From: Chloroflexota bacterium
Lineage (GTDB): Bacteria; Chloroflexota; UBA11872; UBA12225; JAJDUF01
NCBI GenBank assembly: GCA_965238265.1
Contig: OZ250185.1
Span: 989,153-1,053,152, forward strand
Direction of reading: 5' to 3'
Length of the DNA stretch: 64,000 nt
Below the pieces are notes generated by a model, which searched no databases, had not been told where the DNA came from, and saw only the letters and a program-made list of their open reading frames with translations. Shown here piece after piece: positions 3,348 to 26,640 of this stretch (positions within the stretch are counted from its first letter, which is position 1; each line of letters starts with the position of its first letter). The translations under genes were made by a program, and so were the position numbers.

Positions 3348-4529
3348 TCACCCGGCCTCGCCGTTCCGGACGGCCTGCGCGACCCAGGCGGCCAGGTCAT
3401 CGAGGCAGAGCCGCTTCGCCTGGGGCAGGTCGCAGTCGTCAACCGCCATGACCCGCCGGCTCTCCCGTGCGCCATAGGCAGCATCCAGTTTGGATAGGTG
3501 CTTGGCCAGGGCGTCCACGGCCGCCGCGGTCCGCGCCTTCACCGGCGTTCGGAAGGCGTTGGCGAGGCTGCGCGGCTGGCGCGATCCGGCCTCAATCAGC
3601 ATCAGATCGGCATAGCCGTAGGGCGCGGTGGAGCCGAGCTTGGCCCCCGGCGAGACAGTAGCGATCAGATGCACCAGGTGCTCCACTACCTGACTGGCGA
3701 GGGTCTTGTCGGCGTTGGCCCAGGCCTCGGCGTCGCAGCCCGTCAGGTTGGACACCAGCCCCGGCACGTCCACGACGACGTAGCCATAGAACAGCCCCGC
3801 CGTCAGCTCCATATCGCCGATGTGGTCGGCGCCCGGGTCCTCGTCTACGTCCCGCAGGTCATCCACCACGGAGAAGTAGTCGCTCTCGCTTTCCTCCTGG
3901 TGGACGGTGAAGGCGTGGGCCACGTGGATGGCGGCATCAATGTTCGCGCCGGGATCGGACGTGACCATCCGGCCGAACAGGGCGCCGACGAGTCCGCCAG
4001 GCAGACTGGTCTGCTCCCGGAAGGCCCGGAAGTTCTCGCGCTGCTCGTTGCGGCGCTGGGTGCTGAACAGCAGTTTGGCGGCCTCAGCCGCGGCTTTGGG
4101 ATCGTCGTGATGCTCTTTGCAAATCGCGGCGGCCTGGTCACGGAGATATTCGACCTCCGCGTGGCCGAGCAGCAAGGGTTGCCGGCCGCTCCTGTCGGTA
4201 CCTTTCTCGCCGTACACGCCCTTCTGGAACTCCGCCTCGACGCCATCCAACACGTCCTCGGGGACGCCGTTCGCCTCCCGCAGCGGCTGGATCACGCTGC
4301 GCGTGACCACCTCGCGCGAGCGGATAGCGTCCGCGGCCCCATTGATATTGTGGAGCGCGAACTCGTCGTCCGCCACGCGCCAGTGTCGCTTGAGGCACTG
4401 AGACGAGACACGGGTTCGCACGGCATCGCCGAACGGCAGTCGCTTGGCGAGACCGCTGTCGTCGCGGTTCAGCAATGCTGCCGGGTACGAGTGCAGGGTA
4501 TGGATCTGCAGGAATCTTGGGATAGTCAC
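3348..4529 (-). CDS. cas7e: Cas7e (CasC) Cascade backbone subunit
   Basis: 393-aa ORF (MTIPRFLQIHTLHSYPAALLNRDDSGLAKRLPFGD...) with the hallmark Cas7e N-terminal motif. Confidence 0.88.
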   Translation of the reverse strand: MTIPRFLQIHTLHSYPAALLNRDDSGLAKRLPFGDAVRTRVSSQCLKRHWRVADDEFALHNINGAADAIRSREVVTRSVIQPLREANGVPEDVLDGVEAEFQKGVYGEKGTDRSGRQPLLLGHAEVEYLRDQAAAICKEHHDDPKAAAEAAKLLFSTQRRNEQRENFRAFREQTSLPGGLVGALFGRMVTSDPGANIDAAIHVAHAFTVHQEESESDYFSVVDDLRDVDEDPGADHIGDMELTAGLFYGYVVVDVPGLVSNLTGCDAEAWANADKTLASQVVEHLVHLIATVSPGAKLGSTAPYGYADLMLIEAGSRQPRSLANAFRTPVKARTAAAVDALAKHLSKLDAAYGARESRRVMAVDDCDLPQAKRLCLDDLAAWVAQAVRNGEAG

Positions 4530-4558
4530 TTCATGCCTCCTTACTCTGTGTTCGCTTC

Positions 4559-5155
4559 CTAGTCTTGCGGACGGCTCGCGCGGTTCTCCGCCCAGTAGTA
4601 GCGCCGCGCTATGTCGCGGCGAACGTAGTCCGCTCGCTCCTCGTTGTAACCATCATCGAGGATCAGTTGAGCCATCCGATACCAGTCGAACGCGCAGCCT
4701 TTGGCGCCCAACATGCGGAACATGCGCGCCAGCAGCGTCCGCAGCATCGGGCCGCGCGCAGTCAGCAGCCGGTTCAGGCGCGACTGACTGTAAAACTCGG
4801 TCGCTCTGCTCCGGTCGTCGCCGTAGAACAGCGCCACGCCAATGGGCGTATGCCGGTCGTGCGCTGATCGGCTCATGGCATCGCTCTCTGCGGTGCGGGT
4901 CATCAGCGCCAAGCCGTGCAGGACCAGCGCCCACTTGTGTTCGATAGCCGGACTGCCGAGCAAGTCGTACTGCGCCATCAGCCACCAGAAGACGGCCGCG
5001 TCCGGCTTGTCCGGGTCCATGCGGCGCAACTCGGCCAGGTCGCCGCGCGGAAAATCCTCGGCTGCCAACTGACGGGCAAAGCCGACGGCGACCTCACCCC
5101 ATGGGCGGCTCTGCACTGGCTGGTCAGGGAGTTCAGCCGTCGTTTCGGTCGTCAC
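4559..5155 (-). CDS. cse2: Cse2 (CasB, Cas11) Cascade small subunit
   Basis: 198-aa Arg-rich helical ORF lying between cse1 and cas7e. Confidence 0.8.
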   Translation of the reverse strand: MTTETTAELPDQPVQSRPWGEVAVGFARQLAAEDFPRGDLAELRRMDPDKPDAAVFWWLMAQYDLLGSPAIEHKWALVLHGLALMTRTAESDAMSRSAHDRHTPIGVALFYGDDRSRATEFYSQSRLNRLLTARGPMLRTLLARMFRMLGAKGCAFDWYRMAQLILDDGYNEERADYVRRDIARRYYWAENRASRPQD

Positions 5156-5158
5156 TCG

Positions 5159-6730
5159 CTACCTCCTTCTTGGGGGGAATAGCTCTGGGAATCCGTCTTT
5201 TGGCCCACGGATTCGCCCCTCGAATACGCTGTCGGCACGTACCCTAGCCCGGTAGCGTTGGATGGCCGGACAGGGCAGGGAATCCTCAGCATCCCGGAGA
5301 ATCCGCCGGGCGTGGTCTATCACGCCGTCCTTATCATCGTTCTTCAGCCAGCGGTGGCGAATACCCTTCCGCTCGGACTCGGCGGCCTCGAACTCCGTTT
5401 GCAGGTGATGGAAGAAGTCACGGTCAACGATCTCGTCGAGCTTATTGGCCCAGGGGTTGGCACGGTCACGCTGTTCGTCTCCGACGCCCTCGGTCTTGCC
5501 GCCCGCGGCGAAGGTCCAGATAGCATGTCGCAAGATGCGCTGCACTTTGCGAACATCCTCGACGCGTTCGCTCGCGATCCGGCCTAGTTCTTCGAGTCCA
5601 TCGGCGCGGCTGATAATCGGTATCACCTTCCCCTTGAACGGGATGATCCGCTCGTGATAGCCCTCGGTCTTGCCTTGACCGCGCACCATTCCGCGCGCGA
5701 CCAGCAGCATGTCCTGCGGCGAGCGGCGCTCGGCAGCGGTCAGCCTGAACAGAGGCGGCGCTTGCCAGTCGGTGGAGAGGTAGTCAACGGTTTTCTTGTA
5801 GGTGAAGCCGCCGGTGGGCAGGGTCAGCGACTTGCTCTCCTTCCTGTTGACGGGTGTCCAGGGGTCGCCGCTGAGGCCCTTCAACGCTTTGGCCTCGATG
5901 CGGGCCGCTTTGGAGGTAGCGCGGATGACGCTCACCCTTCCAATCGGATCGGCTTGCAACCGGATACGTCGGCAAATCTCGATATAGAAGGGATCGAGGT
6001 CGCTGAGGAGCAAGGCCTCAGCCTTTGTCCCATCCCAAGCCTTTGTCCACAGCAGTTGGAATCCGCCATCGCGCGTGAGGTCAAGGTCGAGGATGTTTTC
6101 GCGTTGCTCCAACAGCGCCCCAATGTCGCGGCGCACGTGAACCCCCGGCCGCACGGACGGGGTGAGGGTGAAGGCCGGCCGGCACCCCAACCCGCCGTTC
6201 ATGCGGGAAATCCCGTAGTTGCCCGCGCCGCCAAAGCCCTCCGTGGTTTGGAGCGTAATCAGCGCGAATAGCCAGTCGTTGATTGTGGCCGCCGACGCGA
6301 CGGCCGATTTGAGGTCGTGGTTTTTCGACGTGACCAGCATGTCTAGCTCGTCGGGCGTCTCGACCGTGCTCTTGTACTCGGCGAGCTTGCTCGGCGCGGA
6401 GGCCGGCGGCTGCATGAAGGCTGGCTCGCGGATGTCCGCGACGACCAGCTGCCACGGCTCGTCATCGGGATAGTCGGGTGTGAGGCCGCGAATGAGGTCC
6501 CGCCACTCCTCGGCAGCGGCCGGCGGCTCGCTAAGGCCGGCGCGGTGGAGCGACATGGCGCCGAGCTGGACGAGGAAGGCGTGCCAGGCGTGGCGCTGGT
6601 GCGGCCGCAGCACCGGGAAGCTGTCTACCCTGTCCGCCATCAGCGCGGCATAGACCTGCGGCAGCGTGGCCGCGACCGTTCCGTCGGCGGTGTTCATGTT
6701 GATGAGGGGTTCTGTGAGTAGGTTGAACAT
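5159..6730 (-). CDS. cse1: Cse1 (CasA, Cas8e) Cascade large subunit
   Basis: 523-aa ORF (MFNLLTEPLINMNTADGTVAATLPQVYAALMADRVDSFPVLRPHQRHAWHAFLVQL...) with the conserved Cse1 N-terminal motif. Confidence 0.88.
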   Translation of the reverse strand: MFNLLTEPLINMNTADGTVAATLPQVYAALMADRVDSFPVLRPHQRHAWHAFLVQLGAMSLHRAGLSEPPAAAEEWRDLIRGLTPDYPDDEPWQLVVADIREPAFMQPPASAPSKLAEYKSTVETPDELDMLVTSKNHDLKSAVASAATINDWLFALITLQTTEGFGGAGNYGISRMNGGLGCRPAFTLTPSVRPGVHVRRDIGALLEQRENILDLDLTRDGGFQLLWTKAWDGTKAEALLLSDLDPFYIEICRRIRLQADPIGRVSVIRATSKAARIEAKALKGLSGDPWTPVNRKESKSLTLPTGGFTYKKTVDYLSTDWQAPPLFRLTAAERRSPQDMLLVARGMVRGQGKTEGYHERIIPFKGKVIPIISRADGLEELGRIASERVEDVRKVQRILRHAIWTFAAGGKTEGVGDEQRDRANPWANKLDEIVDRDFFHHLQTEFEAAESERKGIRHRWLKNDDKDGVIDHARRILRDAEDSLPCPAIQRYRARVRADSVFEGRIRGPKDGFPELFPPRRR

Positions 6731-7004
6731 GGTTGTCGTCCTTGCTATGGGGTATCCTTAACTAGAACGGATGTCCAGAAGCGAGGTTGTGCAACTACAC
6801 GCTAACGGGGATTGGGCAACTCATGCACCGGCTTGTCGTCCATGGTTACTTGCGCTCCGGTCCCATCCCGGCCCGGAGCGACCACTACCTGAAACAGCAC
6901 ATCCTCAGTGATGACCGAGACGCATAGGGATTTACTTACTTGAGTGACCAGCCGAAGGTCATCCAAACTGGTACAATCGGACGGCCACAGGCCATAGGGA
7001 TAAG

Positions 7005-7087
7005 TGCGGTAGGTGGGACTCGAACTCACACGGCCACAGGCCACGTAGCTCCTGACTACGCGCGTCTACCAATTCCGCCACTACCGC
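7005..7087 (-). tRNA. tRNA-Leu-like class II tRNA sequence (possibly a pseudo-tRNA or att remnant). It has a 7-bp acceptor stem (GCGGTAG / CTACCGC), a Leu-type D-arm (GGCGGAATTGGTAGAC), a long variable arm and a T-loop (GTTCGAGTCC). The anticodon loop reads TCAGGAG, one nucleotide short of canonical UUCAGGU. The T-stem has one mismatch and no CCA is encoded.
   Basis: By-eye fold of the reverse complement of 7005-7087. The sequence resembles E. coli tRNA-Leu(CAG) through the D-arm. No tRNAscan was run. Confidence 0.4.
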
Positions 7088-7173
7088 GCGAACTCCCTAA
7101 CGTCGGAATCCTTCATTGCCCTTCAAAGGTTCATTGTATAGAATGGGAGCGCGATGTGTCAAGCACTCCCACT

Positions 7174-7266
7174 GGTTCCCCGCAGACAGACGCGGGGGTA
7201 GACCACTTCGTAGGGCGATGCTCACACATCGCACATTGGTTCCCCCGCACACGCGGGGTTGCGGGC
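7174..7266 (+). CRISPR. Degenerate mini-CRISPR of two decayed I-E repeats in plus-strand canonical orientation, opposite to the main array. The repeats are GGTTCCCCGCAGACAGACGCGGGGGTAGACC and GGTTCCCCCGCACACGCGGGGTTGCGGGC. They are separated by a ~33-nt spacer-like segment and preceded by an AT-richer leader-like stretch (ttcattgtatagaatgg).
   Basis: Both copies match the array repeat (GGTTCCCCCGCACACGCGGGGATAGACC) at about 80-90%, and their ~64-nt spacing is close to the 61-nt array period. They sit in the cas3-cse1 intergenic region. Confidence 0.5.
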
Positions 7267-7282: not shown

Positions 7283-9928
7283 CTAGAGTCGGCGCAGCCC
7301 CCGGCGGTCGTAGCGGCAGCGTCGCTCGCCAAGGGGGAACTCGAATCCGTCACCGTCCGGCGACGGTACTACCGACTCTGGTTCCTTACCGGACGGCAGC
7401 CAGTCCATCCGCAACGCCAACTTGTCAATCTGCTGCGAGCTGTCGAACGGGCTGGGCTGCGGGGGATCGAGGATTACGTCTAGCCGGTCGTCGCCGAGGC
7501 GCGTGCGTATCCGCTCCTCCTTGCCTGCAAAGGCGATGCCCTGATCGAGGAAAGTCTTGCAGCGCTCAATGACGACATGCTGGCCAGTGACGTTGTCCGC
7601 GATTCTCGCGCCCTCGACCTCGTTTGCATGGACAATCCAGTCCTCGCCCATTCCCCGCGTAATGGCTTTCAGCGCGCCCGGATGCGTGGCCCGCTCCACC
7701 AGCCGCCGGTTCATCTCCGGGATGCGCCACTCGGGATATTCGTCAATCAGCCGCCGCGTCGCTTCCAGTATCCGCAAGTCCTCGTACACATGGCCGTGTG
7801 GCCCCAAGCCGTTCGCGTTCGGCGTGCGCTCCAGCAATGGGGCGAGGTCGTTGTCCGGCGGCGTCAGGACGGTGCAGGCGGGCGTCGTATGGCCGGCCGG
7901 CCGGTCGTGGTGCTCGTGCCGATGGAGGCGGCCGATGCGCTGGAGCAGCACGTCCGCCGGGCAGAGGTCGGTAATCAGCAGGTCCGCGTCAATATCCAGC
8001 GACTGCTCCAGCGTTTGCGTGCCGACGACGATATGTCCACCGCCGGGCGGCTGTTTGCCAAGCTGCCGTTCCACCTCCTCATCCAGCAACCGGCGGTCCG
8101 CGGCGGCGAACCGGCCATGATGCAGCGTTGGCTTGCCGCAGACGGTGAACAGCAGCCCGGCGTCGGCGGGGCCGGCCAGCTCTTCTATCGCTTGCTGGGT
8201 ATTGATGGCGTAGTCAACGGTGTTGCGAACCACCAGGACCTTTGCACCGGCACGGGCGGCCGTCAAGGCGCGGTGGGCGGTGTCGTCGAAGTCGTGCATC
8301 CTGGAAACCGCCGTGATATGGACGCGCTTGCGCTGGTCGTTCTCGTTGGCCGCGAGGACCGCTTCACGGCCGTCTCCCAGTGTGGTGACCGCCGGGTATG
8401 CGGTGTTGATCGCGTCATCCAGCGAGAGGGACGGGGCCTCGCTGGTGCGGCGCGGCCGGAAGAGCCAGCGCAAGCGGGCCGCCGAGCCGAGCGTGGCGGA
8501 CATGAGCAAGGCGTAGCCGCCGGCGCCGATGTGGGCAGCGAGCAATTGCTCCAGAATGGCGCTCATGTAGGTGTCGGAAGCGTGAACCTCGTCTACGACC
8601 AAGAGATTGCGCGCCAGGCACGCGGCCCGCATATGGGCGTTCTTGACTTGGAGCGCGCCCAGCATCGCCTGGTCTACGGTGCCGACGGCGATCTGGGCAG
8701 CGAGGAACCGCTTGGGGTTCTCGGCAGCCCACGGTCTGTCGCGGTTGTAGTCCGGCAATTCCACGCCGGCGGCATCCGCGTCAGGTTCGTAGCCGGGGAC
8801 GGCGAGCACCACGGGCGGCCTGTGCTGTGGCAGCAGCTTGCCGATGAAGCGCTTGACGCGCCCGTGGATCTGGACGGCGGCCGCTCGCGTGGGCAGGGCG
8901 AAGTAGAGGCCGTCCACCAACTGTCGCTCGTACATCTTGGCAAAGCGCCAGAGCGCGGCCTCCGTCTTGCCGGAGCCGGTTTCGGACTCGATGATGACCA
9001 GCTGCTGATCCAGCGGCGTGCGCTGTGCAGTCGCTTGGATGGCGTTCGGCGTGGGTGAACCGGGTATGTCGAACAGCTCTCCGAACTCCGGTACGCGAGT
9101 AAAGCCGTTCCGCTGACCGAGTAAGTCCAGCCCTATCGCGCCGATGGCCTGCTTCGCCTGTCGCTGGGCCGCCTCGAAGTAGTCGTCCCGGTGTTCGTCA
9201 ACAAACGGGAACCAGTCCTCGTTGGAGCCAATCCAGTCGGCCCAGTTGCACAGTCCCAGGAACATGTGCTGGAAGGCGGGAGCGGACGGCAGTGGCGGGG
9301 CACCAGAGTCGAACGCCGCCGGGAACCATTGGCGCACCAGCTTGCCGATCCGCGCGACGCAGCGGCGCGGGTGAAGCTCGCCAAAGGAGCACCAGACGCG
9401 CGCGTTCTCCGACCGGCTGTCATGCAGATTCAGCGGCTCACCGTGATGCGACAGCGCCGCGACGAATAACGCACACGCGGTCACGCCGCCATCGCTATCC
9501 CAGGACAGAACGTCATCATCCCATCCCAGCGCCTCGAAGAACCACGCGGCAGTTTCCCCGTCCCTGCCAGTAAGCACGGGTACTAGGTCTGCCGTGTGTC
9601 CGGTGCGCGGTGGTTTCCTCTTGTTCGACAGGTCTTCCGGGCGCCAGATTCGCGCCTGGAAGCCGACGTTTACCTTGCCGATATCGTGCAGGGCAGCGAA
9701 GACAGCCAGACGCGCAGCGGTTGCGTCGTCGAGGTGGTCGAAACCAGCGGTCCAGGCCAGCCGGTTCCGGATGATCGGTTGGGCCAGCAGTGCCTCGAAG
9801 CAGGCGCCGACATCGGCAAGGTGGTACTCGAGCAGGTGAATGTCCTCCGGACCCCGTTGCCGGCCAGGGGCCGCCTTGGCCCAGAACAGCCTGGTGTAGG
9901 CCGGTGTGCCCTCTACCCGGCCGACCAC
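7283..9928 (-). CDS. cas3: Cas3 HD-nuclease / SF2 helicase (type I-E). A GTG start is predicted at 9928, overlapping the vapC stop.
   Basis: The 881-aa ORF has an N-terminal HD domain (...HLLEYHLADVGACFEALL..., HD motifs), helicase motifs (GSGKTEAAL Walker A, DEVH-type motif II) and a C-terminal domain. Confidence 0.88.
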   Translation of the reverse strand: MVGRVEGTPAYTRLFWAKAAPGRQRGPEDIHLLEYHLADVGACFEALLAQPIIRNRLAWTAGFDHLDDATAARLAVFAALHDIGKVNVGFQARIWRPEDLSNKRKPPRTGHTADLVPVLTGRDGETAAWFFEALGWDDDVLSWDSDGGVTACALFVAALSHHGEPLNLHDSRSENARVWCSFGELHPRRCVARIGKLVRQWFPAAFDSGAPPLPSAPAFQHMFLGLCNWADWIGSNEDWFPFVDEHRDDYFEAAQRQAKQAIGAIGLDLLGQRNGFTRVPEFGELFDIPGSPTPNAIQATAQRTPLDQQLVIIESETGSGKTEAALWRFAKMYERQLVDGLYFALPTRAAAVQIHGRVKRFIGKLLPQHRPPVVLAVPGYEPDADAAGVELPDYNRDRPWAAENPKRFLAAQIAVGTVDQAMLGALQVKNAHMRAACLARNLLVVDEVHASDTYMSAILEQLLAAHIGAGGYALLMSATLGSAARLRWLFRPRRTSEAPSLSLDDAINTAYPAVTTLGDGREAVLAANENDQRKRVHITAVSRMHDFDDTAHRALTAARAGAKVLVVRNTVDYAINTQQAIEELAGPADAGLLFTVCGKPTLHHGRFAAADRRLLDEEVERQLGKQPPGGGHIVVGTQTLEQSLDIDADLLITDLCPADVLLQRIGRLHRHEHHDRPAGHTTPACTVLTPPDNDLAPLLERTPNANGLGPHGHVYEDLRILEATRRLIDEYPEWRIPEMNRRLVERATHPGALKAITRGMGEDWIVHANEVEGARIADNVTGQHVVIERCKTFLDQGIAFAGKEERIRTRLGDDRLDVILDPPQPSPFDSSQQIDKLALRMDWLPSGKEPESVVPSPDGDGFEFPLGERRCRYDRRGLRRL

Positions 9929-10338
9929 GGATTCATTACCTCAATCCCACAGCCGGCAAAGTCATCCACATCCCGGGTCGCAACCCGTGCCCCTCGGGAG
10001 CGGGCAATCGCTGCGATCTGGCAGTCGGCCTGATTGATCGGCCGGCCAGCGGCACGGCGATCCGCCGCGATCACCGCGAATGCTCGGGCGGCCGCACTGT
10101 CGAAGGGCAAGATACGGTCGGCGAATAGGACACCGAAGGCACGCTCGGCCGCGGCAGCCAGACCGTGCCGCCGTCTTCCACCGGGCAACAGTGCGATGCC
10201 GCTGCGGATCTCCGCCTCAGTGACAGCGGTCACGAATAGGGTGCTCGCCAGCTGCTGGTCCAGCCAAGCAAGGACCTCCGGCTGCGGGTAGTCCCGCATC
10301 AGTTCCGAGACAACATTGGTATCCAGAACGATCATCAC
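9913..10338 (-). CDS. vapC: PIN-domain toxin VapC/FitB-like (copy A)
   Basis: The 141-aa ORF carries the four conserved PIN acidic residues (IVLDTNVV, TEAEI, DCQIAAIA, TRDVDDF). Confidence 0.85.
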   Translation of the reverse strand: MMIVLDTNVVSELMRDYPQPEVLAWLDQQLASTLFVTAVTEAEIRSGIALLPGGRRRHGLAAAAERAFGVLFADRILPFDSAAARAFAVIAADRRAAGRPINQADCQIAAIARSRGARVATRDVDDFAGCGIEVMNPWSAG

Positions 10339-10345
10339 CGTTGGC

Positions 10346-10630
10346 TCAGTCGAACCGGGGCGGTTCCCGCATCGGTTCCCGCGGCGGGATATCCAGCTCT
10401 ACGCTGCCGAAAGGCTTGAAAAGCTCGTGGATGGCTGTACCGAGGTTTCTTACGGGGGCTTTCTCCTGCCCGAGCGCGGCTCGCAGGATGTCATGCACCT
10501 CCTCTTCCAGGGAGTGGCCATGCTGGGCCGCCCGGCGGCGGAGGCGCTGCTGTAGGCTCTCGTCGAGGTTACGGACCGTGATACTGGCCATGCTCGTACC
10601 TCCGTCTGTCAACTCATTCCATCGTACCAC
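10346..10630 (-). CDS. vapB: VapB/FitA-like antitoxin (copy A). The probable true start is the internal Met at about 10591 (MASITVRNLDESLQQRL...).
   Basis: Small ORF immediately upstream of vapC that ends 8 nt before the vapC start. Its FitA-like N-terminus is typical of a plasmid-stability-protein antitoxin. Confidence 0.75.
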   Translation of the reverse strand: MVRWNELTDGGTSMASITVRNLDESLQQRLRRRAAQHGHSLEEEVHDILRAALGQEKAPVRNLGTAIHELFKPFGSVELDIPPREPMREPPRFD

Positions 10631-10715
10631 GACTGCACCGCAAGCAATTGGCCGGCCGAAGGCGGCGGGCGTCGTAGTCCAGAATGGAGAGCGGATTAGG
10701 GGTTCCGCGAGTATG

Positions 10716-10750
10716 GGTAGTGTTGCCTCACTCTCTCCGCTCGCCTATAA
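10716..10750 (+). promoter_or_regulatory. Near-consensus sigma70-like promoter TTGCCT-N17-TATAAT inside repeat copy A. It faces rightwards, antisense to the recombinase fragment. An identical copy lies at about 26507-26541.
   Basis: Motif read directly from the sequence (ttgcctcactctctccgctcgcctataat). Function unknown. Confidence 0.35.
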
Positions 10751-10788
10751 TTGCCGGGCGCAATGACCGGGGCGCTGGGCTTGGGAAC

Positions 10789-11240
10789 CTACAGGGGCAC
10801 CACCAATTCAAACGTGGTACTGCGTACAGTCCCCTCAGGCCCACCAGAATGTACTGTACTGCGAACTCGCCCATTCAGGGCGATCTCTGCGGCGTCCGCT
10901 CCACCTATCGGAGAGTCTTCCGGCGTGGGTATGGAGTAGACGATGGCGGCCCTGCCGGGCTTGACCTCGATCTCCTTGACGAAGGGCCGGACGAAGACCC
11001 TGGTCTCCGTCAGTTCGCTGGTCTTCAGGAAGTCGCTCATCTCCTCGGCGAAGGCGGCGATGGTGTCGGCGCTGTCGAGGAACTGCCGCCGCTCTGCCAG
11101 CAGCCCTCTGGCCTCCTCTGCGGCGACCTCCAGCTTCTCCTTGCGCTCCCGGTGCTCCCTGATGCGCTCGGAGGCGTCGGCCATCTCGATGTCGGTGGTC
11201 TCGATGACCTGCCGGATGCGGCCCAGCCGCCGCTTGGTCG
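10789..11240 (-). pseudogene. C-terminal fragment (~150 aa) of a large serine recombinase: coiled-coil plus the C-terminal ...FVKEIEVKPGRAAIVYSIPTPEDSPIGGADAAEIALNGRVRSTVHSGGPEGT... segment. The N-terminal catalytic domain is absent.
   Basis: The C-terminal half of ORF 10789-11778 resembles the conserved tail of large serine recombinases, whereas its N-terminal 180 aa are low-complexity nonsense. Confidence 0.45.
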
Positions 11241-11536
11241 AGGATGCCCCGGAGAAGGAGGTCCACCGCGAGCGGCTGAATACCACCGTGGTCGCCCTGG
11301 ACCTCGACGACGGCGAGATCACCGACATCGCCGCATAGCTCAGACGGCTCACTCTGAGCCGCAACACGCAGCAGTCGCTGTTCTCTGAGCTGAGTTCATG
11401 GCCGAAGAGCCGGTCAAGCCCAAGGGCCGAAGCCGCAAGGCCCAGCCTACGTCGATGTCCATGTTCGAGTGGGCGCTGACTCTGGAATAGGAGCGCGAGA
11501 CGGTCGGCGCGGGGCGCTAGGCCGAATACAGGGGGA

Positions 11537-11572
11537 GGACACCGCGATGATGCGGTGTCCTCCCCCTCCTGC
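11537..11572. repeat. Perfect 15-bp-stem hairpin GGGGGAGGACACCGC-gatgat-GCGGTGTCCTCCCCC. It is followed by a 30-bp motif (catgtatgcggcctttttgcgtttcagggtc) that recurs in diverged form at about 11958-11990.
   Basis: Read directly from the sequence. It may be an att-site or terminator remnant next to the recombinase fragment. Confidence 0.5.
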
Positions 11573-12707
11573 CCATGTATGCGGCCTTTTTGCGTTTCAG
11601 GGTCTTTGAGGCTTTGGCCGAGTATCGGTTGGAATCTCTCACACAGCCCGGTTGGATAATCGGACTGGTCGTGTATGAGAGCGTAAGCGGATTCCAAGCG
11701 GTAGGCAGTAATCCAGCGTTTCGGAGTAATCCAGCATATGGGCAGTTCATGGAGAACTACCCGCCAACTATCTTCCAAGCGACACTAGTTGTCTAACACT
11801 CTAGCATTGATAGGTAACGGAGTTACGCTTGGTCACAATCACCGTAGGGGTGGGTTTCAAACTCGCCTTATCGGCGTTAGGACACAAATCCTGCATATGC
11901 TGTCCATACCACGCCAATCCCGACTGCCCATCATTTCAAAGTTTTTCGTCTACTAGGCCATGTGTGCGGGCCTTTTTCGTTTCAGGGCCTCCGTCCATGT
12001 ATGCAGCCCTCGCCCGGCCTCGGTGCCCGGTGGCTTCCCACCCGCCGCGCGGGGTGTGATCATCCTGTCTACCAGGATGCCGACGCCGCTCGCCCGGCGG
12101 AACGTCTTGCGAGGGGGGCGTGTGTGCCCTCCCTTTTAGGACCCGCAAATCACGACGGTGTCACCGGTGTAATAGACGTGTACAGGAATCTGCACTGGAG
12201 TCCGCCGGGTGCTAGAGGGGTCGTTTGCCCACGCTACCAGATAGAAAACGGGGGCCACCGCGGGTCGCATGGTGCCATTCCAGCAAGCACTTGGGTACCG
12301 GGGCTGGTTCCAAGGCGATGGCCACGCCGCGGCTAGGGGTGGTGGCCAAGTGCCCCAGAGAAGGATGGCCAACATTGGCCACGCCGGAATTGGGGCAAAA
12401 TGGGGGCCACCGCGCCTGGACACCGCTCCCCACCGCCTGGCGCACGGGCAACCGGAGGCGGTGTGGCGTCTGTGGCAGGTGCTCACGCTGGGTGTGTGGT
12501 GGTCGGAGCCACCGCTGACGAGTGGCCACATGGGAGCAAGCACTTTAGGCTGGGAGATGCCGAAGCAGTTGCCACCGCCGGTCGCCCACGAGGGGTACCC
12601 CTGCCCCCGGTGAGCAGTGGCTCAAGTATCACGCCTTGCGCTCCTGCACGCCGCTTCAGCAGCCGGGAGGCCCTGATCGAAGTGCGCCACGCGCTTTGAC
12701 CGGCACC

Positions 12708-15844
<3,137 letters not shown>

Positions 15845-15925
15845 GGCGTCCGTCCTGCCCCGGACATGACATGGTCATTCCAATTGGGCAGCTGGCTCTT
15901 TCGCTGTAGCCCTATGTAGTCGTTG

Positions 15926-16306
15926 TCACGGTGCCGCTGAACGCTCTTCAATGATGACTTCGCCGTCGGCCCATGTTTCCAGCGTTACGCTACTGTCCCA
16001 GAGCAGATCCATTCCAAGCAGCGGGACACTATCCGATTGCAGCACCAGCGCATCAGCCAAGCGTCCGTGCCAGGATACCGTAGCACGGTAGGTATTGAAT
16101 TCGAATGGCTCCCCATTGGCCAACTCGAAGATTCGATAACCTGCCGAAGGAAGTCCCAACCGCCGAATGGCATCCGGGGGTAGTGTCAAGTAGCCGGTGA
16201 ATCCGGTGTCCAAGACGACCTCCAATTCTTGGAGGCGGTCCTCGCTGTCCATAACGGCTAAGGTAATCAAGGCTTGTTGGTACTGGTTTACTTTTCCCCT
16301 AATCAT
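15926..16306 (-). CDS. Retropepsin-like (clan AA) aspartic protease with a DTGF motif (VLDTGFTGYL)
   Basis: 126-aa ORF with a single D-T-G active-site motif followed by F, the size expected of a homodimeric retropepsin. Its ATGA start overlaps the stop of the upstream small ORF. Local GC is about 52-54%. Confidence 0.65.
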   Translation of the reverse strand: MIRGKVNQYQQALITLAVMDSEDRLQELEVVLDTGFTGYLTLPPDAIRRLGLPSAGYRIFELANGEPFEFNTYRATVSWHGRLADALVLQSDSVPLLGMDLLWDSSVTLETWADGEVIIEERSAAP

Positions 16307-16572
16307 GGCTTGAACGTCAAGCTCCCGCCGCCCATGCTGTAGGCAGCGCGATAACCGACCCGCAGTCCATAGATGACGGCATCCGACCGCCGTTGCTGCA
16401 ATCGGCGCGTGGCTGTTGCGTCGTTGGCATCCAACTCGTAATCGCCGGTTTCGATGTCAATGACCACGAACTTGCCGTGTTCCTGCGGCTCCACCAAGCG
16501 GCGTATCTTTTCCCGGTAGATCGCCTCGCCGCGAGCGCATGCCTCCTTGGGGCTATAAGTCCGGGTTGTCAT
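16303..16572 (-). CDS. Small 89-aa protein of unknown function, translationally coupled to the aspartic protease
   Basis: An ORF with a 4-bp ATGA overlap onto the downstream protease gene. No fold was recognised by eye. Confidence 0.5.
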   Translation of the reverse strand: MTTRTYSPKEACARGEAIYREKIRRLVEPQEHGKFVVIDIETGDYELDANDATATRRLQQRRSDAVIYGLRVGYRAAYSMGGGSLTFKP

Positions 16573-16639
16573 AGCATCCTCCCGTTGGCAGTCGCCGATG
16601 ACGCCGCGTGTAACGGCTCCATACCAGTATACCGGGCGC

Positions 16640-16860
16640 TAGTTGTCAGACGGTCCGCTGCCGGGCCCCAGCGTCGGCCCGGCCGGGCGGGTCAGCCGGC
16701 GGAAGGAGCCATACAGCGCATCGGCGGGAGGTCCGCTCGGCGCCGGGGGCGTCGGGGGCGATGTCCGGCCCGTGCGCCACCCGCCAGCCGAGGGCGGCCA
16801 GCCAGTCAAGGGCGGCGGCCTCAACGTCGGCTTCGGTGAGGGTCATTGGCGCGTTCACTG
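16640..16860 (-). pseudogene. Decayed ~220-bp duplicate of the hsdR 5' end: about 85% identical to 15598-15850 with a ~60-bp internal deletion and frameshifts
   Basis: ORF 16646-16858 ([42 protein letters not shown]...) parallels the HsdR N-terminus, and the nucleotide alignment to 15598-15850 is visible by eye. Confidence 0.7.
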
Positions 16861-17745
16861 GTTTCTAGCCTTTGCCCACATCAGTGATGACCGTCGAAAG
16901 GCTGACATTTTGGCCGTGTACCGATAGGCATTAGGCGGTTCTAGGTGGGAATTCGAGAGGTGTTCGATCAAGGCACCATACAGAGCAGCCAAATGCGTAC
17001 CTGGTATCGAACCGCCTTCTGTCTCCGCGCCTTCGGCGAAGAACCAGTCATAATCCGATTGTGCAACTTCAACAGGATATTTGTGAATTGAGATGCCTTC
17101 CTGCCCATCCATTTTCCCGTAGCATATGATTCCTTTGTTCAAGAGCACCGACATATTAGGCAGCAAACTAGGATCAACCGACGAGAGAAGAGTCATCACT
17201 TTTCCGAATTCGAAATCGCCACCATCTATACATAGAAGAAATGCATATAGGCTGTTCAAATATTTGTTCGGGCTGGCTAGCACGATATCATTCATTGATG
17301 TGGAGTCCTTAAGTCCTCCATGGAAGGTGTTTTCTACAAGAGGTCTATCCATTCCAGAAATCTGTTGCAAAACGTCATGCAGTTTCTCATAATAACGTTC
17401 GGACTGATAATAGGTTGATTTCACCTCACCGATTGCATATACGGAGGTTACGGGTACGTACTCGGTGCCATCTTTGGTAGTCAGCAACGACGGGAGGCTG
17501 AAATTGTCGGCGATGATTACATCCAATTGCGGGCTGACCAGATTGCTTGAATCGATGAGGTGACCGCTTGTAACATAGTAACGAGGCGGCAACATACGTT
17601 TCAAGTAGTCACGAACCGATTGTTCAACCTGGTTTCCAGCCGCTCTAATGTCTGTGGGGTGAATTCGAATGGCCTCCTCGCGTGCTCGCTGTAGGGCTTC
17701 CGCATCCGATTTGAAGATTCCTGCGAGGTTTAGGGTACTTGGCAT
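16855..17745 (-). CDS. Hypothetical 296-aa protein with a candidate PD-(D/E)xK nuclease motif (QLDVIIAD ... YAIGEVKST). It lies between hsdS and the hsdR remnant, and its GC (~48%) is well below that of its neighbours.
   Basis: The motif spacing (D ~30 aa before E-x-K) is consistent with a restriction-endonuclease-like fold. The composition shift is visible by eye, and no other homology was recognised. Confidence 0.45.
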
Positions 17746-17770
17746 CTACTTGTCCCTTTATTATACGTAC

Positions 17771-19375
17771 TCACAATGCCCCCACCTCACCCGACACCAG
17801 CCTCGGCAACAGCGCATCCCGCAGGTCGGCCAGGGTGCGTGATTCCGTTTTGGTTGACTCCATCTTGTCGAGGATGGAGCCAGCACTCATGGAAAACCAG
17901 TCCAACACGTCAGTTCCAGCAGTGGGAATTGCTACTTCAGTTTCACTAACGACCTCTGGACGAACCGCCGGATATGCTGCGCCATCCGCTCGGTGAGCCA
18001 GCCACTCAATATTGTCTGGGGCTGTCGCTGCAAGATATACCAACTCCCGGAACCGTGGGTTCAAAGGCCGAAGCACGGCGAATCCGGTGCTTCCCGTCAG
18101 ACCATCGTTTCCTATAAGTGAGTAAGAACCGTTGCCCGGTCGAACTGTCCCAACTATGGTGTCTCCAGAGCGAAGGGCCCGTTTTGCCCTACTAGGGGCA
18201 TCCTTCCAAGAAAAATGTTGCGTGGATTCGATTACTCCCCACTTTGTGTTCGCCAAGTCAACGTATTCGATATCTGTGGGGCTATTCGTTCTGGACCAAG
18301 ACTCAGGGTTGAGATTCGAAAACTCCCCGACCGCCTTCACCTCCCACCCCGCCGGTATCTCCCCCAGCTCCGAGGCCACCAGGCGCTCCGGGAACAGCGC
18401 CCACAGCTCCGGCGGCAGGTACGGCGCGCGACCGGCCAGCTTGGCGCGCGTGGGGCCGAAGTCCACGAACCAGTCCTGGAAGAGGGCGCGGGCCATGGCC
18501 TCCAGCGTCTCGTTCATCCGGCGGTTGAGCGCGATCTTGTCGTCGAGGGTGCCGAGGACGTGGGCGATGGCGCGCTGTTCGGGGAGGGGAGGTGCAAGTA
18601 CACTCAACGACTGGATCATTGCCTTCGTAAGGGCGTTTCGAGTTCCGCCTGATCCTGCCCAAGACAAGAGCATGGTCTGTGTCTCAGGACAAGCGAGGAA
18701 ATAGCGCAGGAAGCGCGAGTCTAACTGGTTTGGGTCTGTCCGAATGATAGCGACGTGCTGGTTCACCCGTGCCGGAAGCACTCCGGGATCAACCTGGCAC
18801 ACACGCGCCACCGAATCGCCGGTAATGTTCAGTAGCACATCATCTGGAAAGACCTCGACGTTCCGCAGGCCGTGCGCCTGTTCATCACTGATATAGGCCA
18901 ACCCCTCGTGGCTGAACCCAGCATTGTAGACGTTCTGGCTACGAATCAATGCGTAGGGTCCGTCTTCCAGGTAGACATCCCGGCCCCCTCGTGGCGTGGC
19001 TCCACTGCCAATTTTGGTGCAGGCATCTCCAAGCACTATTTCCCGCCACTCGCTCGCCGCTGCCGATTGCTCGTCCGTGCCTTGCTGCAACACTACGTAG
19101 TCGCGCTCTATCACCGCCCGGAAGCGCTCGGGGATCGTGTGCCAGTCGTGTACGTCCACCCGCATGGGCAGGTCCGATTCCTCAAAGGCTTCCTTCAGCC
19201 GACCGAGTACTCCCCACTCCAGCGGTCCCCCGCCGACAACGGCCAGGTCCAGGTCGGAGTAGTCCTTCGCGGTCCAAGTCGCACGGGAACCGAAGGCGCG
19301 TATCTCGCACGCCGGCACGTGCTCCGCCAGGATGCGCCGGACCGTGCCGAGGTGGTGCGGGTTGAGGTCAATCAT
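17771..19375 (-). CDS. hsdS: In-frame fusion of a minimal nucleotidyltransferase (MNT, residues 1-~105; GSRATWTAKDYSDLDLAVV) to a type I specificity subunit HsdS (residues ~112-534, two target-recognition domains)
   Basis: A single 534-aa ORF. The N-terminus has the GS-x9-DxD nucleotidyltransferase motif. From SEWREIVLGDACTKIGSGATP onwards it is a canonical HsdS with central and C-terminal conserved helices (LPEQRAIAHVLGTLDDKIALN...). No ATG separates the two parts. Confidence 0.75.
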   Translation of the reverse strand: MIDLNPHHLGTVRRILAEHVPACEIRAFGSRATWTAKDYSDLDLAVVGGGPLEWGVLGRLKEAFEESDLPMRVDVHDWHTIPERFRAVIERDYVVLQQGTDEQSAAASEWREIVLGDACTKIGSGATPRGGRDVYLEDGPYALIRSQNVYNAGFSHEGLAYISDEQAHGLRNVEVFPDDVLLNITGDSVARVCQVDPGVLPARVNQHVAIIRTDPNQLDSRFLRYFLACPETQTMLLSWAGSGGTRNALTKAMIQSLSVLAPPLPEQRAIAHVLGTLDDKIALNRRMNETLEAMARALFQDWFVDFGPTRAKLAGRAPYLPPELWALFPERLVASELGEIPAGWEVKAVGEFSNLNPESWSRTNSPTDIEYVDLANTKWGVIESTQHFSWKDAPSRAKRALRSGDTIVGTVRPGNGSYSLIGNDGLTGSTGFAVLRPLNPRFRELVYLAATAPDNIEWLAHRADGAAYPAVRPEVVSETEVAIPTAGTDVLDWFSMSAGSILDKMESTKTESRTLADLRDALLPRLVSGEVGAL

Positions 19376-19790: not shown

Positions 19791-19863
19791 GATCTTCCTC
19801 GTTACTCGCGGGCGTGCTCGTCCGCAACCCCCAGGCGTACCATGCTGATGTCAATGGCGCTGG

Positions 19864-20301: not shown

Positions 20302-20303
20302 TA

Positions 20304-20656: not shown

Positions 20657-20680
20657 TTGCGAGTGCTCCTCTCCCATCAG

Positions 20681-22276
<1,596 letters not shown>

Positions 22277-25703: not shown

Positions 25704-26129
25704 CTACCCGGCCGACCACGGATTCATTACCTCAATCCCACAGCCGGCAAAGTCATCCACATCCCGGGTCGCAACCCGTGCCCCTCGGGAGCGAGCAATC
25801 GCTGCGATCTGGCAGTCGGCCTGATTGATCGGCCGGCCAGCGGCACGGCGATCCGCCGCGATCACCGCGAATGCTCGGGCGGCCGCACTGTCGAAGGGCA
25901 AGATACGGTCGGCGAATAGGACACCGAAGGCACGCTCGGCCGCGGCAGCCAGACCGTGCCGCCGTCTTCCACCGGGCAACAGTGCGATGCCGCTGCGGAT
26001 CTCCGCCTCAGTGACAGCGGTCACGAATAGGGTGCTCGCCAACTGCTGGTCCAGCCAAGCAAGGACCTCCGGCTGCGGGTAGTCCCGCATCAGTTCCGAG
26101 ACAACATTGGTATCGAGAACGATCATCAC
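25704..26129 (-). CDS. vapC: PIN-domain toxin VapC/FitB-like (copy B), identical to copy A
   Basis: Its translation is identical to ORF 9913-10338. Confidence 0.85.
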   Translation of the reverse strand: MMIVLDTNVVSELMRDYPQPEVLAWLDQQLASTLFVTAVTEAEIRSGIALLPGGRRRHGLAAAAERAFGVLFADRILPFDSAAARAFAVIAADRRAAGRPINQADCQIAAIARSRGARVATRDVDDFAGCGIEVMNPWSAG

Positions 26130-26640
26130 CGTTGGCTCAGTCGAACCGGGGCGGTTCCCGCATCGGTTCCCGCGGCGGGATATCCAGCTCTACGCTGCCG
26201 AAAGGCTTGAAAAGCTCGTGGATGGCTGTACCGAGGTTTCTTACGGGGGCTTTCTCCTGCCCGAGCGCGGCTCGCAGGATGTCATGCACCTCCTCTTCCA
26301 GGGAGTGGCCATGCTGGGCCGCCCGGCGGCGGAGGCGCTGCTGTAGGCTCTCGTCGAGGTTACGGACCGTGATACTGGCCATGCTCGTACCTCCGTCTGT
26401 CAACTCATTCCATCGTACCACGACTGCACCGCAAGCAATTGGCCGGCCGAAGGCGGCGGGCGTCGTAGTCCAGAATGGAGAGCGGATTAGGGGTTCCGCG
26501 AGTATGGGTAGTGTTGCCTCACTCTCTCCGCTCGCCTATAATTGCCGGGCGCAATGACCGGGGCGCTGGGCTTGGGAACCTACAGGGGCACCACCAATTC
26601 AAACGTGGTACTGCGTACAGTCCACCTAGGCCCACCAGAG
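25705..26640. repeat. Direct repeat copy B (see 9915-10835). It carries the second vapB/vapC pair and a 17-codon recombinase 3' end.
   Basis: Near-identical to copy A. Confidence 0.9.
26137..26421 (-). CDS. vapB: VapB/FitA-like antitoxin (copy B)
   Basis: Its translation is identical to ORF 10346-10630. Confidence 0.75.
   Translation of the reverse strand: MVRWNELTDGGTSMASITVRNLDESLQQRLRRRAAQHGHSLEEEVHDILRAALGQEKAPVRNLGTAIHELFKPFGSVELDIPPREPMREPPRFD

What the first reader, a model, noticed from the sequence alone, without database searches (positions are those of the whole stretch)
9913..10630. A VapBC (FitAB-like) module is translationally juxtaposed to cas3
The vapC stop (9913-9915) lies 13 nt inside the predicted cas3 start (GTG at 9928), and vapB, vapC, cas3 and the Cascade genes are all co-directional. 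The arrangement implies co-transcription of a PIN toxin with the interference nuclease. TA-CRISPR coupling, such as CreTA or addiction of cas operons, is an emerging theme. A VapBC read-through into cas3 could make loss of the cas locus costly, or it could tune cas3 expression.
Basis: partly seen in the sequence, partly recalled or inferred. Interest (0 to 1): 0.55.

Follow-up and report, generated by a model that had tools for sequence, protein, structure and literature searches.

The report
FitAB toxin-antitoxin cassette fused to cas3
A common, mobile toxin-antitoxin gene pair has become welded onto the front of the CRISPR nuclease gene cas3 in a group of Chloroflexota, so that cas3 now starts inside the toxin gene and probably depends on the pair's promoter, but it does not look like a device that locks the CRISPR system into the genome.

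Summary
On the minus strand a FitA-like RHH antitoxin gene (10591-10346) and a FitB-like PIN toxin gene (10335-9913) run straight into cas3. The cas3 GTG (9928) lies 16 nt inside vapC and is the only possible start. The same junction is intact in five related Chloroflexota loci. There the start toggles GTG/ATG through a change that is silent in vapC, and vapBC is under purifying selection. I infer a vapB-vapC-cas3 operon driven by the conserved vapB promoter. The Cascade genes lie behind a separate 552-nt spacer with their own promoter.

The addiction reading is not supported. The cassette is a generic, multi-copy module, and a second copy encoding identical proteins sits 15.8 kb away (25704-26639). 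Two relatives kept vapBC but deleted the cas locus, leaving only a short cas3 stub. Four relatives in which cas3 keeps its native start carry decayed vapBC.

The best reading is that a mobile TA cassette was captured as the 5' expression module of cas3, possibly placing Cas3 under TA autoregulation. This is a modestly novel architecture of a known association.

A side lead may be more interesting: a CreR/CreA-like mini-array and an odd tRNA lie between cas3 and cas8e.

The parts
10346..10591 (-). vapB, a FitA-like ribbon-helix-helix antitoxin of 81 aa
   Evidence: Pfam PF22513 at E=4.6e-18. It matches FitA chains 2bsq_E and 2h1o_E at E=5e-3. Omega is 0.1-0.35 among cas3-linked copies.
9913..10335 (-). 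vapC, a FitB-like PIN toxin of 140 aa, with stop TAG at 9915-9913
   Evidence: Pfam PF01850 at E=3.7e-16. It aligns end to end with FitB 2h1c at E=2e-29, and D5, E42, D104 and D122 are all present. Omega is 0.06-0.29.
9913..9928 (-). 16-nt vapC/cas3 overlap (GTGGTCGGCCGGGTAG). The cas3 start codon lies in the Pro-Trp codons of the conserved NPW C-terminus of VapC.
   Evidence: Sequence. The geometry is identical in L001, L020, L023, L037 and L038, with a GTG/ATG toggle.
9938..9942 (-). GAGGT Shine-Dalgarno-like motif 9 nt upstream of the cas3 start, inside vapC
   Evidence: Sequence. It is conserved, or improved to GGAGGT, in the relatives.
7283..9928 (-). cas3 (type I-E; HD nuclease plus helicase, 881 aa)
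   Evidence: Pfam Cas3_HD, DEAD and Cas3-like_C_2. Homologues are 60-98% identical.
10592..10660 (-). Conserved vapB promoter/leader. It contains the GCCGGCC palindrome, TTGCTT (10647-10642), a 15-nt spacer, the extended -10 TGgTACGAT (10629-10621) and the GGAGG Shine-Dalgarno (10603-10599).
   Evidence: This is the most conserved non-coding stretch in 10 aligned copies, including the copies outside cas loci and the decayed ones. The promoter assignment is an inference: the stretch does not meet the strict sigma-70 scan.
10661..10848 (-). Far-upstream part of the 936-bp cassette. It includes the last ~60 nt of a serine-recombinase reading frame (10789-10848) and a divergent promoter-like site, TTGCCT-17-TATAAT, on the + strand (10723-10751).
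   Evidence: It is duplicated with the cassette. It is conserved upstream of vapB in L020, L023, L029 and L002, but is missing in L038.
10849..11270 (-). Remnant of the C-terminal part of a large serine recombinase, apparently not intact
   Evidence: The ORF translation ends in a recombinase-like coiled-coil and C-terminus, but it has no Pfam hit. L030 has Resolvase and Recombinase fragments in the same position. The assignment is weak.
25704..26639 (-). Second copy of the whole vapBC cassette, with no cas3 behind it
   Evidence: It is 99.4% identical over 936 nt to 9913-10848, and VapB and VapC are 100% identical. Homology ends exactly at the vapC stop codon.
7133..7162 (-). Separate promoter-like site for the Cascade operon (TTGACA-18-TACAAT, 11 of 12 matches). 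It is included as context to show that Cascade is not simply read through from vapBC-cas3.
   Evidence: A TTGACA box follows the mini-array in most related loci.

Best explanation
A generic, mobile FitAB-type VapBC cassette landed at the cas3 edge of a type I-E CRISPR-Cas locus. The cassette is about 936 bp: promoter, vapB and vapC, plus the tail of a serine-recombinase gene. The locus lies in a defence island of a Chloroflexota lineage, and the cassette sits where related loci have a divergent RNase_T exonuclease gene.

In one sub-lineage, which includes this window, the cassette became fused to cas3. The native first four codons and the 5' region of cas3 are gone. cas3 now initiates at a GTG/ATG inside the last codons of vapC, behind a GAGGT ribosome-binding site that is also inside vapC.

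vapB, vapC and cas3 therefore most likely form one transcript from the conserved vapB promoter, and cas3 translation starts within the vapC coding region. By analogy with FitAB and other VapBC systems, that promoter would be repressed by the VapB-VapC complex. Cas3 would then be made at a low, TA-buffered level, and more would be made when VapB is degraded.

The Cascade and adaptation genes are expressed separately, from their own promoter behind cas3.

The cassette persists because it is a selfish TA and because cas3 has become dependent on it for expression. It does not persist because it guards the CRISPR locus.

Shown: gene identities, the junction, its conservation, purifying selection, cassette multiplicity, and decay or loss in relatives.
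Inferred: co-transcription, autoregulation, and any adaptive value.
For: Identity:
- vapB is FitA-like_RHH, vapC is PIN and cas3 is Cas3_HD.
- VapC matches FitB at E=2e-29 with all four catalytic acidic residues.

Junction:
- There is only one possible cas3 start.
- The same 16-nt overlap is found in six loci whose Cas3 is 76-98% identical, with a GTG/ATG toggle that is silent in vapC.

Selection and co-inheritance:
- Omega is 0.1-0.3 for vapB and vapC.
- dS for vapBC (0.18-0.43 between the species-level loci) is similar to dS for cas3 (0.28-0.49).

No internal signals:
- No sense-strand promoter-like or terminator-like site lies from vapB into cas3 in the window, L001, L020 or L037.
- The roughly 70 nt upstream of vapB is the best-conserved non-coding stretch.

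Dependence pattern:
- All loci with the fused junction keep vapBC intact.
- All four loci in which cas3 keeps a native start (MSTAEG, MSTTEG or MTTTES) with its own upstream sequence have decayed vapBC.

Mobile and generic nature of the cassette:
- There is a second copy in the window.
- There are thousands of relatives at 70-80% identity.
- L031-34 and L042 sit in contexts without cas genes.
- Recombinase remnants lie alongside.
- The outgroups carry RNase_T instead.

Separate Cascade promoter.
Against: - There is no transcript data. A promoter inside vapC that does not resemble sigma-70 consensus cannot be excluded, and Chloroflexota promoters are poorly known.
- The proposed vapB promoter has a 15-nt spacer and failed the strict scan.
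- No clear operator inverted repeat was found.
- The link between an intact vapBC and a fused junction could be phylogenetic inertia. The Cas3 tree is only roughly resolved and looks mosaic, with L023/P0012 grouping among the unfused loci.
- The direction of change, spacer-first then fusion or two separate insertions, is unresolved. The cassette boundary falls exactly at the vapC stop codon in three different contexts, which a simple deletion model does not explain.
Confidence: 0.6

Rival explanations
1. Addiction. VapBC stabilises the cas locus: cells that delete the region lose the labile antitoxin, are poisoned by the stable VapC, and so CRISPR-Cas is retained.
For: - The toxin has intact catalytic residues, and the pair is under purifying selection and physically welded to cas3.
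- The same idea was proposed for vapBC pairs inside and beside cas and cmr cassettes of Sulfolobales (PMC3119797).
- TA genes are enriched in type I cas loci (bioRxiv 10.1101/2023.03.03.530964).
Against: - A second copy in the same window encodes identical VapB and VapC, so antitoxin would still be supplied. PMC3119797 itself notes that similar VapBC pairs would compensate for each other.
- L029 and L043 deleted cas3 to cas2 but kept vapBC.
- vapBC decayed beside intact cas loci four times.
- The cassette sits at the very edge of the locus and cannot penalise point mutations or internal deletions of cas genes.
Confidence: 0.08
2. Functional coupling of dormancy and immunity. Infection or stress degrades VapB. 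This releases the VapC RNase, which slows growth, and at the same time de-represses the operon, which raises Cas3. Interference is boosted while the cell is arrested.
For: - The operon architecture would produce exactly this co-induction.
- The general hypothesis is published (PMC3506569).
- The fused arrangement has been kept for as long as these species have diverged.
Against: - There is no evidence for a trigger, for VapC targets, or for any benefit.
- The same cassette lives happily outside cas loci.
- vapBC is dispensable where cas3 has its own start.
- Cascade is regulated separately.
Confidence: 0.15
3. Mere adjacency. cas3 is transcribed from an unrecognised promoter inside vapC. The overlap is a harmless by-product of a selfish insertion and has no regulatory consequence.
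For: - Consensus scans are weak evidence in Chloroflexota.
- cas3 has its own Shine-Dalgarno motif.
- In L038 the cassette's far-upstream part is replaced, yet the locus is otherwise the same.
Against: - No promoter-like site lies inside vapBC in four loci.
- The native cas3 upstream region is absent.
- vapBC is intact in every fused locus and decayed in every unfused one.
Confidence: 0.17

Closest known systems
FitAB of Neisseria gonorrhoeae (type II TA; RHH antitoxin FitA plus PIN toxin FitB; PDB 2h1c, 2h1o, 2bsq)
   Same: - VapC aligns over its full length with FitB at E=2e-29, with D5, E42, D104, D122 and the C-terminal NPW all present.
- VapB matches FitA and the Pfam FitA-like RHH family.
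- The gene order is antitoxin then toxin, with a 10-nt gap.
   Different: - Here the toxin gene contains the start codon and ribosome-binding site of cas3.
- The cassette is duplicated in the genome.
- No FitA-type operator repeat could be recognised.
vapBC pairs interspersed in or flanking CRISPR-Cas and Cmr cassettes of Sulfolobales (You et al. 2011, PMC3119797; Garrett et al. 2015, PMC4390879)
   Same: VapBC modules lie immediately beside cas gene cassettes in variable genome regions, and were proposed to help keep them.
   Different: - Those are archaeal, and no shared reading frame or start with a cas gene is reported in the text I read.
- Those VapBCs are all unique in their genome. The authors treat that uniqueness as essential for maintenance, whereas this genome has two identical copies.
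CreTA, the CRISPR-repressed RNA toxin-antitoxin, and CreR mini-arrays (PMC9458426, PMC8501985, bioRxiv 10.1101/2023.03.10.532045)
   Same: Both are toxin-antitoxin elements embedded in a type I cas locus. The idea of coupling a toxin to Cas function is shared.
   Different: - In CreTA the toxin is repressed by Cascade guided by a degenerate mini-CRISPR, so the cell is addicted to the Cas proteins themselves.
- VapBC is a self-contained protein pair with no dependence on Cas.
- The locus's own mini-array spacer has no seed-plus-PAM match near the vapB promoter.
TA 'cargo' genes enriched near mini-arrays in I-B, I-D, I-E and I-F loci (Shmakov et al. 2023, bioRxiv 10.1101/2023.03.03.530964)
   Same: They report a statistical association of TA genes with type I-E cas loci. 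This locus also has a mini-array, antisense to cas3, between cas3 and cas8e.
   Different: Their cargo sits between the mini-array and the effector genes and is predicted to be Cascade-regulated. Here vapBC is on the other side of cas3 and is fused to it.
E. coli type I-E locus, where cas3 has its own promoter separate from the casABCDE12 operon (my own knowledge)
   Same: cas3 and Cascade are separate transcription units with a long regulatory spacer between them.
   Different: Here the cas3 promoter and start have been replaced by those of a TA cassette.

Membership tests
VapBC / FitAB type II toxin-antitoxin | PIN-domain toxin with the four conserved acidic active-site residues | tested here: met
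   PF01850 at E=3.7e-16. D5, E42, D104 and D122 align with FitB.
VapBC / FitAB type II toxin-antitoxin | Small DNA-binding antitoxin gene (RHH) immediately upstream in the same orientation | tested here: met
   PF22513 at E=4.6e-18. The vapB stop is 10 nt before the vapC ATG.
VapBC / FitAB type II toxin-antitoxin | The toxin inhibits growth and is neutralised by the cognate antitoxin | not testable with these tools
   There is only indirect support: purifying selection on both genes, and decay that removes or disables the toxin (L035, L036, L030 D122G).
VapBC / FitAB type II toxin-antitoxin | Autoregulated promoter with an operator bound by the antitoxin or the complex | tested here: inconclusive
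   A conserved ~70-nt region with an extended -10-like TGgTACGAT and a GCCGGCC palindrome is present. It has no clear FitA-type inverted repeat and fails the strict promoter scan.
Type I-E CRISPR-Cas | cas3 (HD plus helicase), cas8e/cse1, cse2, cas7, cas5, cas6e, cas1, cas2, and an array with a 61-nt period | tested here: met
   Pfam hits were found for all genes except the 523-aa cas8e candidate. Its homologues in relatives carry PF09481. The array lies at 1-340.
CreTA-type CRISPR-regulated TA (considered for vapBC) | The toxin promoter is targeted by a degenerate mini-CRISPR guide (seed plus PAM), so that Cascade represses the toxin | tested here: not met
   The mini-array spacer has no seed-plus-PAM match near 10592-10700. 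Its best match is at 7128, beside the Cascade promoter.
Addiction (post-segregational killing) module for the cas locus | The antitoxin is supplied only by the region being protected | tested here: not met
   A second cassette at 25704-26639 encodes identical VapB and VapC.
Addiction (post-segregational killing) module for the cas locus | Loss of the guarded genes is not observed while the TA remains | tested here: not met
   L029 and L043 have vapBC followed by a 67-nt or 31-nt cas3 stub and then unrelated genes.
Single vapB-vapC-cas3 operon | One transcript spans the three genes | not testable with these tools
   Consistent with it: a 16-nt overlap, no promoter-like or terminator-like sites on the sense strand in four loci, and a conserved junction. 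RNA data are needed.

The most novel reading that the evidence does not exclude
The vapB promoter has become the only promoter of cas3. The interference nuclease would then be licensed by a toxin-antitoxin switch: Cas3 is held low by VapB-VapC autorepression and is induced together with the VapC RNase when VapB is degraded during infection or stress. Growth arrest and target DNA destruction would be synchronised. Selection on cas3 expression, rather than on toxicity, would be what keeps the cassette intact in the fused lineage.
Probability: 0.15. Interest if true: 0.7.

Novelty: new variant of a known kind. Interest (0 to 1): 0.38.

Why it matters
TA modules are known to cluster with CRISPR-Cas loci, but why they do so is still argued: guard, co-regulator or hitch-hiker. 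This locus is a natural comparison series. It offers fused and intact copies, unfused and decayed copies, cases where the TA was kept and cas was lost, and a duplicated TA. The pattern argues against the guard idea and for capture of a selfish cassette as an expression module for cas3.

If the operon reading is confirmed, it would be a clear case of a Cas nuclease placed under toxin-antitoxin autoregulation. It would also be an example of a host gene becoming dependent on a selfish element. The practical consequence is small unless a cultured carrier is found.

Tried and rejected
- An exact-sequence look-up of VapC found nothing on record.
- The metagenome scan with VapC returned only one relative, at 35% identity, so it gave no extra contexts.
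- Rfam found nothing credible in 9800-11900, so the conserved region upstream of vapB matches no known RNA family.
- I searched for a match of the mini-array spacer, and by extension for any Cascade control, at the vapB promoter. There is none.
- I looked for an operator-type inverted repeat upstream of vapB. One call failed on a strand argument, and inspection of the alignment was inconclusive.
- I tried to decide whether the fused junction arose from the spacer-containing arrangement by deletion or from a separate insertion. The Cas3 tree looks mosaic, and the cassette ends exactly at the vapC stop codon in three contexts. This remains unresolved.
- I considered that the cassette is an integron-like or site-specifically mobilised unit. 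A similar GGCCsACCAsG motif lies near both ends, but this was seen by eye only and not tested.
- I considered that the second copy is an assembly artefact. I rejected this because both copies have unique flanks and differ at six positions.
Full report
**What is there**

All the genes in question are on the minus strand.
- A FitA-like ribbon-helix-helix antitoxin gene runs from ATG 10591 to 10346. The ATG has a GGAGG 7 nt upstream, and the Pfam profile starts at residue 2.
- Ten nucleotides later comes a PIN toxin gene, ATG 10335 to TAG 9915-9913.
- cas3 begins at GTG 9928, 16 nt before the end of vapC, and ends at 7283.
- Pfam gives FitA-like_RHH (E=4.6e-18), PIN (E=3.7e-16) and Cas3_HD plus helicase plus Cas3 C-terminal domain.
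- VapC aligns end to end with the gonococcal FitB structure (E=2e-29). It keeps the four catalytic acidic residues D5, E42, D104 and D122 and the C-terminal NPW. VapB matches FitA.
- Downstream lie cas8e, cse2, cas7, cas5, cas6e, cas1 and cas2 and a CRISPR array with a 61-nt period at 1-340. This is a complete type I-E system.

**Is the cas3 start right?**

Yes.
- GTG 9928 is the only in-frame ATG/GTG/TTG in the first 80 codons, and an in-frame stop lies five codons upstream.
- The Cas3_HD profile begins at residue 16.
- Ten Cas3 sequences, the window's plus nine homologues 71-98% identical to it, begin MVGRVE or MVGQVE and continue .PAYTRLFWAK.
- In five loci fetched from related Chloroflexota assemblies (L001, L020, L023, L037, L038), vapB and vapC sit in the same place with the same 16-nt overlap.
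- The start codon is GTG in two of them and ATG in three. The difference is a CCG/CCA change that is synonymous in the vapC frame.
- A GAGGT, or GGAGGT, lies 9 nt upstream of the start, inside vapC.

**Is the pair alive, and did it travel with cas3?**

Among the cas3-linked copies, omega is 0.1-0.35 for vapB and 0.06-0.2 for vapC. Between the species-level loci, their synonymous divergence (0.18-0.43) is close to that of cas3 (0.28-0.49; omega about 0.3-0.4). Both genes are therefore under purifying selection and have been attached to cas3 for as long as these genomes have diverged. The higher protein identity of VapC (about 91%) than of Cas3 (76-82%) reflects stronger constraint, not more recent transfer.

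**Expression signals**
- No sense-strand promoter-like or terminator-like site lies between the vapB upstream region and the first 300 nt of cas3. This holds in the window, L001, L020 and L037.
- The roughly 70 nt before the vapB ATG is the best-conserved non-coding stretch in ten aligned copies. It contains a GCCGGCC palindrome, TTGCTT, a 15-nt spacer, TGgTACGAT and GGAGG. I read it as an extended -10 promoter and leader, but this is inference, because it failed the strict consensus scan.
- Behind cas3 there is a 552-nt spacer with a strong TTGACA-18-TACAAT site. A TTGACA box in this position is widespread in related loci. The Cascade operon therefore has its own promoter and should not be counted as part of a vapBC read-through unit.

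**The cassette is generic, mobile and duplicated**
- The window holds a second copy: 25704-26639 is 99.4% identical to 9913-10848 over 936 nt, and it encodes identical VapB and VapC.
- The homology stops exactly at the vapC stop codon on one side and at 10848 on the other. Three of the six differences are synonymous changes in vapC.
- The second copy has no cas gene behind it.
- Between the two copies lies a type I restriction-modification system with an embedded MNT/HEPN pair, so this is a defence island.
- The left end of the cassette carries the last ~60 nt of a serine-recombinase reading frame. The cas3-linked copy is flanked by a longer remnant of that gene. L030 has Resolvase and Recombinase fragments in the same place.
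- VapC belongs to a very large family, with thousands of proteins at 70-80% identity. Relatives at 77-78% identity sit in unrelated contexts (L031-34, L042).

**A natural series of comparisons**

Cas3 relatives at 72-81% identity show other states of the same association.
- L030 has a vapC with D122G and other damage and a frameshifted end. Its vapB is almost entirely deleted, and a 126-nt spacer precedes a cas3 that starts MSTTEG.
- L035 and L036 carry remnants of vapB and vapC interrupted by a small repeat element, and their cas3 starts MSTAEG.
- L002 has only a displaced vapC fragment.
- The MSTAEG-type N-terminus resembles that of outgroup Cas3 proteins (MTNTEGAPAYT), so it is probably the native one and the MVGRVE start is derived.
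- Every locus with the fused junction keeps vapBC intact. Every locus in which cas3 has its own start has let vapBC decay. This is what one expects if cas3 in the fused lineage depends on the cassette for expression. Shared ancestry could produce the same pattern, and the Cas3 tree is not clean.
- L029 and L043 carry vapBC at 87-88% identity, followed by 67 nt and 31 nt of the cas3 5' end and then glycosyltransferase and radical-SAM genes. In those genomes the cas locus was deleted and the TA stayed.
- More distant relatives (17 loci) have no vapBC. They have a divergent RNase_T-family exonuclease gene next to cas3, which is absent from the vapBC clade and from the whole window.

Co-transcription and translational juxtaposition are well supported by anatomy and conservation, though not measured.

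The addiction idea is not supported, for four reasons:
- A second identical VapB source exists in the same genome.
- cas loci have been lost while the TA stayed.
- The TA has decayed next to intact cas loci.
- A module at the edge of the locus cannot punish loss of Cascade function.

The authors who first proposed that vapBC pairs keep cas cassettes in Sulfolobales pointed out that similar VapBC pairs in one genome would cancel that effect (PMC3119797). CreTA works differently: an RNA toxin is repressed by Cascade through a mini-CRISPR guide (PMC9458426; bioRxiv 10.1101/2023.03.10.532045). The mini-array spacer of this locus has no seed-plus-PAM match at the vapB promoter.

**Most likely mechanism**

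A selfish FitAB cassette was captured as the 5' expression module of cas3. I give this about 0.6. From what is known of FitAB and VapBC autoregulation (established family knowledge), Cas3 would then be produced at a low level set by VapB-VapC repression and would rise when VapB is degraded. Whether this is adaptive, for example by coupling dormancy to interference as in PMC3506569, or simply a frozen accident, cannot be decided here.

**Literature**

I found descriptions of the following:
- vapBC beside cas cassettes (PMC3119797, PMC4390879);
- enrichment of TA genes in I-B, I-D, I-E and I-F loci (Shmakov et al. 2023);
- CreTA and CreR;
- a 2025 review of TA-CRISPR coupling that does not mention VapBC or cas3 operons (PMC12737573).

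I found no report of a cas3 gene that starts inside a toxin gene. I therefore rate this a new variant of a known association, of moderate interest.

**Side lead**

The cas3-cas8e spacer holds a two-repeat mini-array antisense to cas3 (7174-7262, + strand). Its 3' hairpin is identical to the array repeat.
- Spacer bases 1-15 match a site that starts at 7128, just downstream of the -10 of the TTGACA promoter.
- In L001 and L002 the only mismatches are at positions 6 and 12. The window has one more, at position 4.
- The PAM is AAG in L002, AAT in L001 and AAC in the window.

This fits the published CreR/CreA type.

In the window, L001 and L002 only, an 84-nt tRNA lies between that promoter and cas8e (Rfam 41.7 bits).
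- It has a long variable arm, a D-arm that looks like tRNA-Leu (from my memory of E. coli tRNA-Leu), discriminator A73 and an abnormal anticodon loop, UCAGGAG.
- The anticodon is AGG in the window and L001 and UGG in L002.
- A Leu-type body with a Pro anticodon under a Cascade-repressed promoter could be a CreT-like toxic tRNA. This is speculation and was only partly followed up.

Noticed in passing
window 7174-7262 (+), target about 7114-7128 (-): A CreR/CreA-like mini-array lies just after the cas3 stop, antisense to cas3: a degenerate repeat, a ~31-33-nt spacer, then a repeat whose hairpin is identical to the array repeat. Spacer nt 1-15 (CTTCGTAGGGCGATG) match the site next to the -10 of the TTGACA-18-TACAAT promoter. 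In L001 and L002 the only mismatches are at positions 6 and 12; the window has one more at position 4. The PAM is AAG in L002, AAT in L001 and AAC in the window. The mini-array plus a TTGACA box is conserved in about 10 related loci.
   Followed up: partly
window 7004-7087 (-): An 84-nt tRNA lies between the Cascade promoter and cas8e (Rfam tRNA 41.7 bits). It has a class II long variable arm, a Leu-like D-arm and A73, but its anticodon loop is UCAGGAG (C33, anticodon AGG, called 'Pro' by ARAGORN). L001 has the same tRNA and L002 has anticodon UGG. L020, L030 and L038 keep the mini-array but lack the tRNA. It is possibly a Cascade-repressed, mistranslating 'toxic tRNA' cargo. The window's copy has an A-C mismatch in the T stem.
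   Followed up: partly
window 25704-26639 (-): A second copy of the 936-bp vapBC cassette, in the same orientation and 15.8 kb from the first, with homology ending exactly at the vapC stop codon. The two direct repeats bracket the type I R-M region and could delete it by recombination.
   Followed up: yes
window 12708-22276 (-): A type I restriction-modification system lies between the two vapBC copies. hsdR is split into two overlapping ORFs (14858-15844 HSDR_N; 12708-14894 the remainder). There is also a DUF6602 gene, an hsdS fused to a nucleotidyltransferase (17771-19375), a HEPN-type partner (19368-19790) and hsdM (20681-22276).
   Followed up: partly
L004-L018, L022, L026, L039-L041, just upstream of cas3 on the opposite strand: A ~180-210-aa RNase_T (PF00929, DnaQ-like) exonuclease gene is divergently adjacent to cas3 in 17 related type I-E loci. 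It is absent from the vapBC-bearing clade and from the whole 64-kb window. It is a candidate CRISPR-associated exonuclease that the vapBC cassette displaced.
   Followed up: partly
window 10723-10751 (+): A divergent promoter-like site, TTGCCT-17-TATAAT, sits in the upstream part of the cassette and points away from vapB. Both hexamers are kept in L020 and L023, and L029 keeps TTGCCT with a TATAAT-to-CATAAT change, while the spacer varies. What it would transcribe is unknown, and Rfam finds nothing there.
   Followed up: partly
L035 about 4400-4580; L036 about 4770-4960: A small element with terminal inverted repeats (…GTAGTGTTTCAGTTTGA … TCAAACTGAGACACTAC…) interrupts the vapC remnant in two loci. 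It looks like a MITE.
   Followed up: no
L023 10874-11065 (-): A second, partial vapC copy (aa 58-121, 84% identical) lies downstream of cas3 in L023. L023 also lacks the mini-array and has a different cas3-cas8e spacer.
   Followed up: no
window 5159-6730 (-): The 523-aa gene in the cas8e/cse1 position has no Pfam hit at E<0.01, although its counterparts in related loci are recorded with PF09481 (CRISPR_Cse1). It is a divergent Cse1.
   Followed up: no
L038 7488-10911: In the closest relative (Cas3 98% identical), the cas8e and cas7 genes are called as short fragments, and the promoter/tRNA segment of the spacer is missing. This is either a decaying locus or frameshift errors in a 17x assembly.
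   Followed up: no
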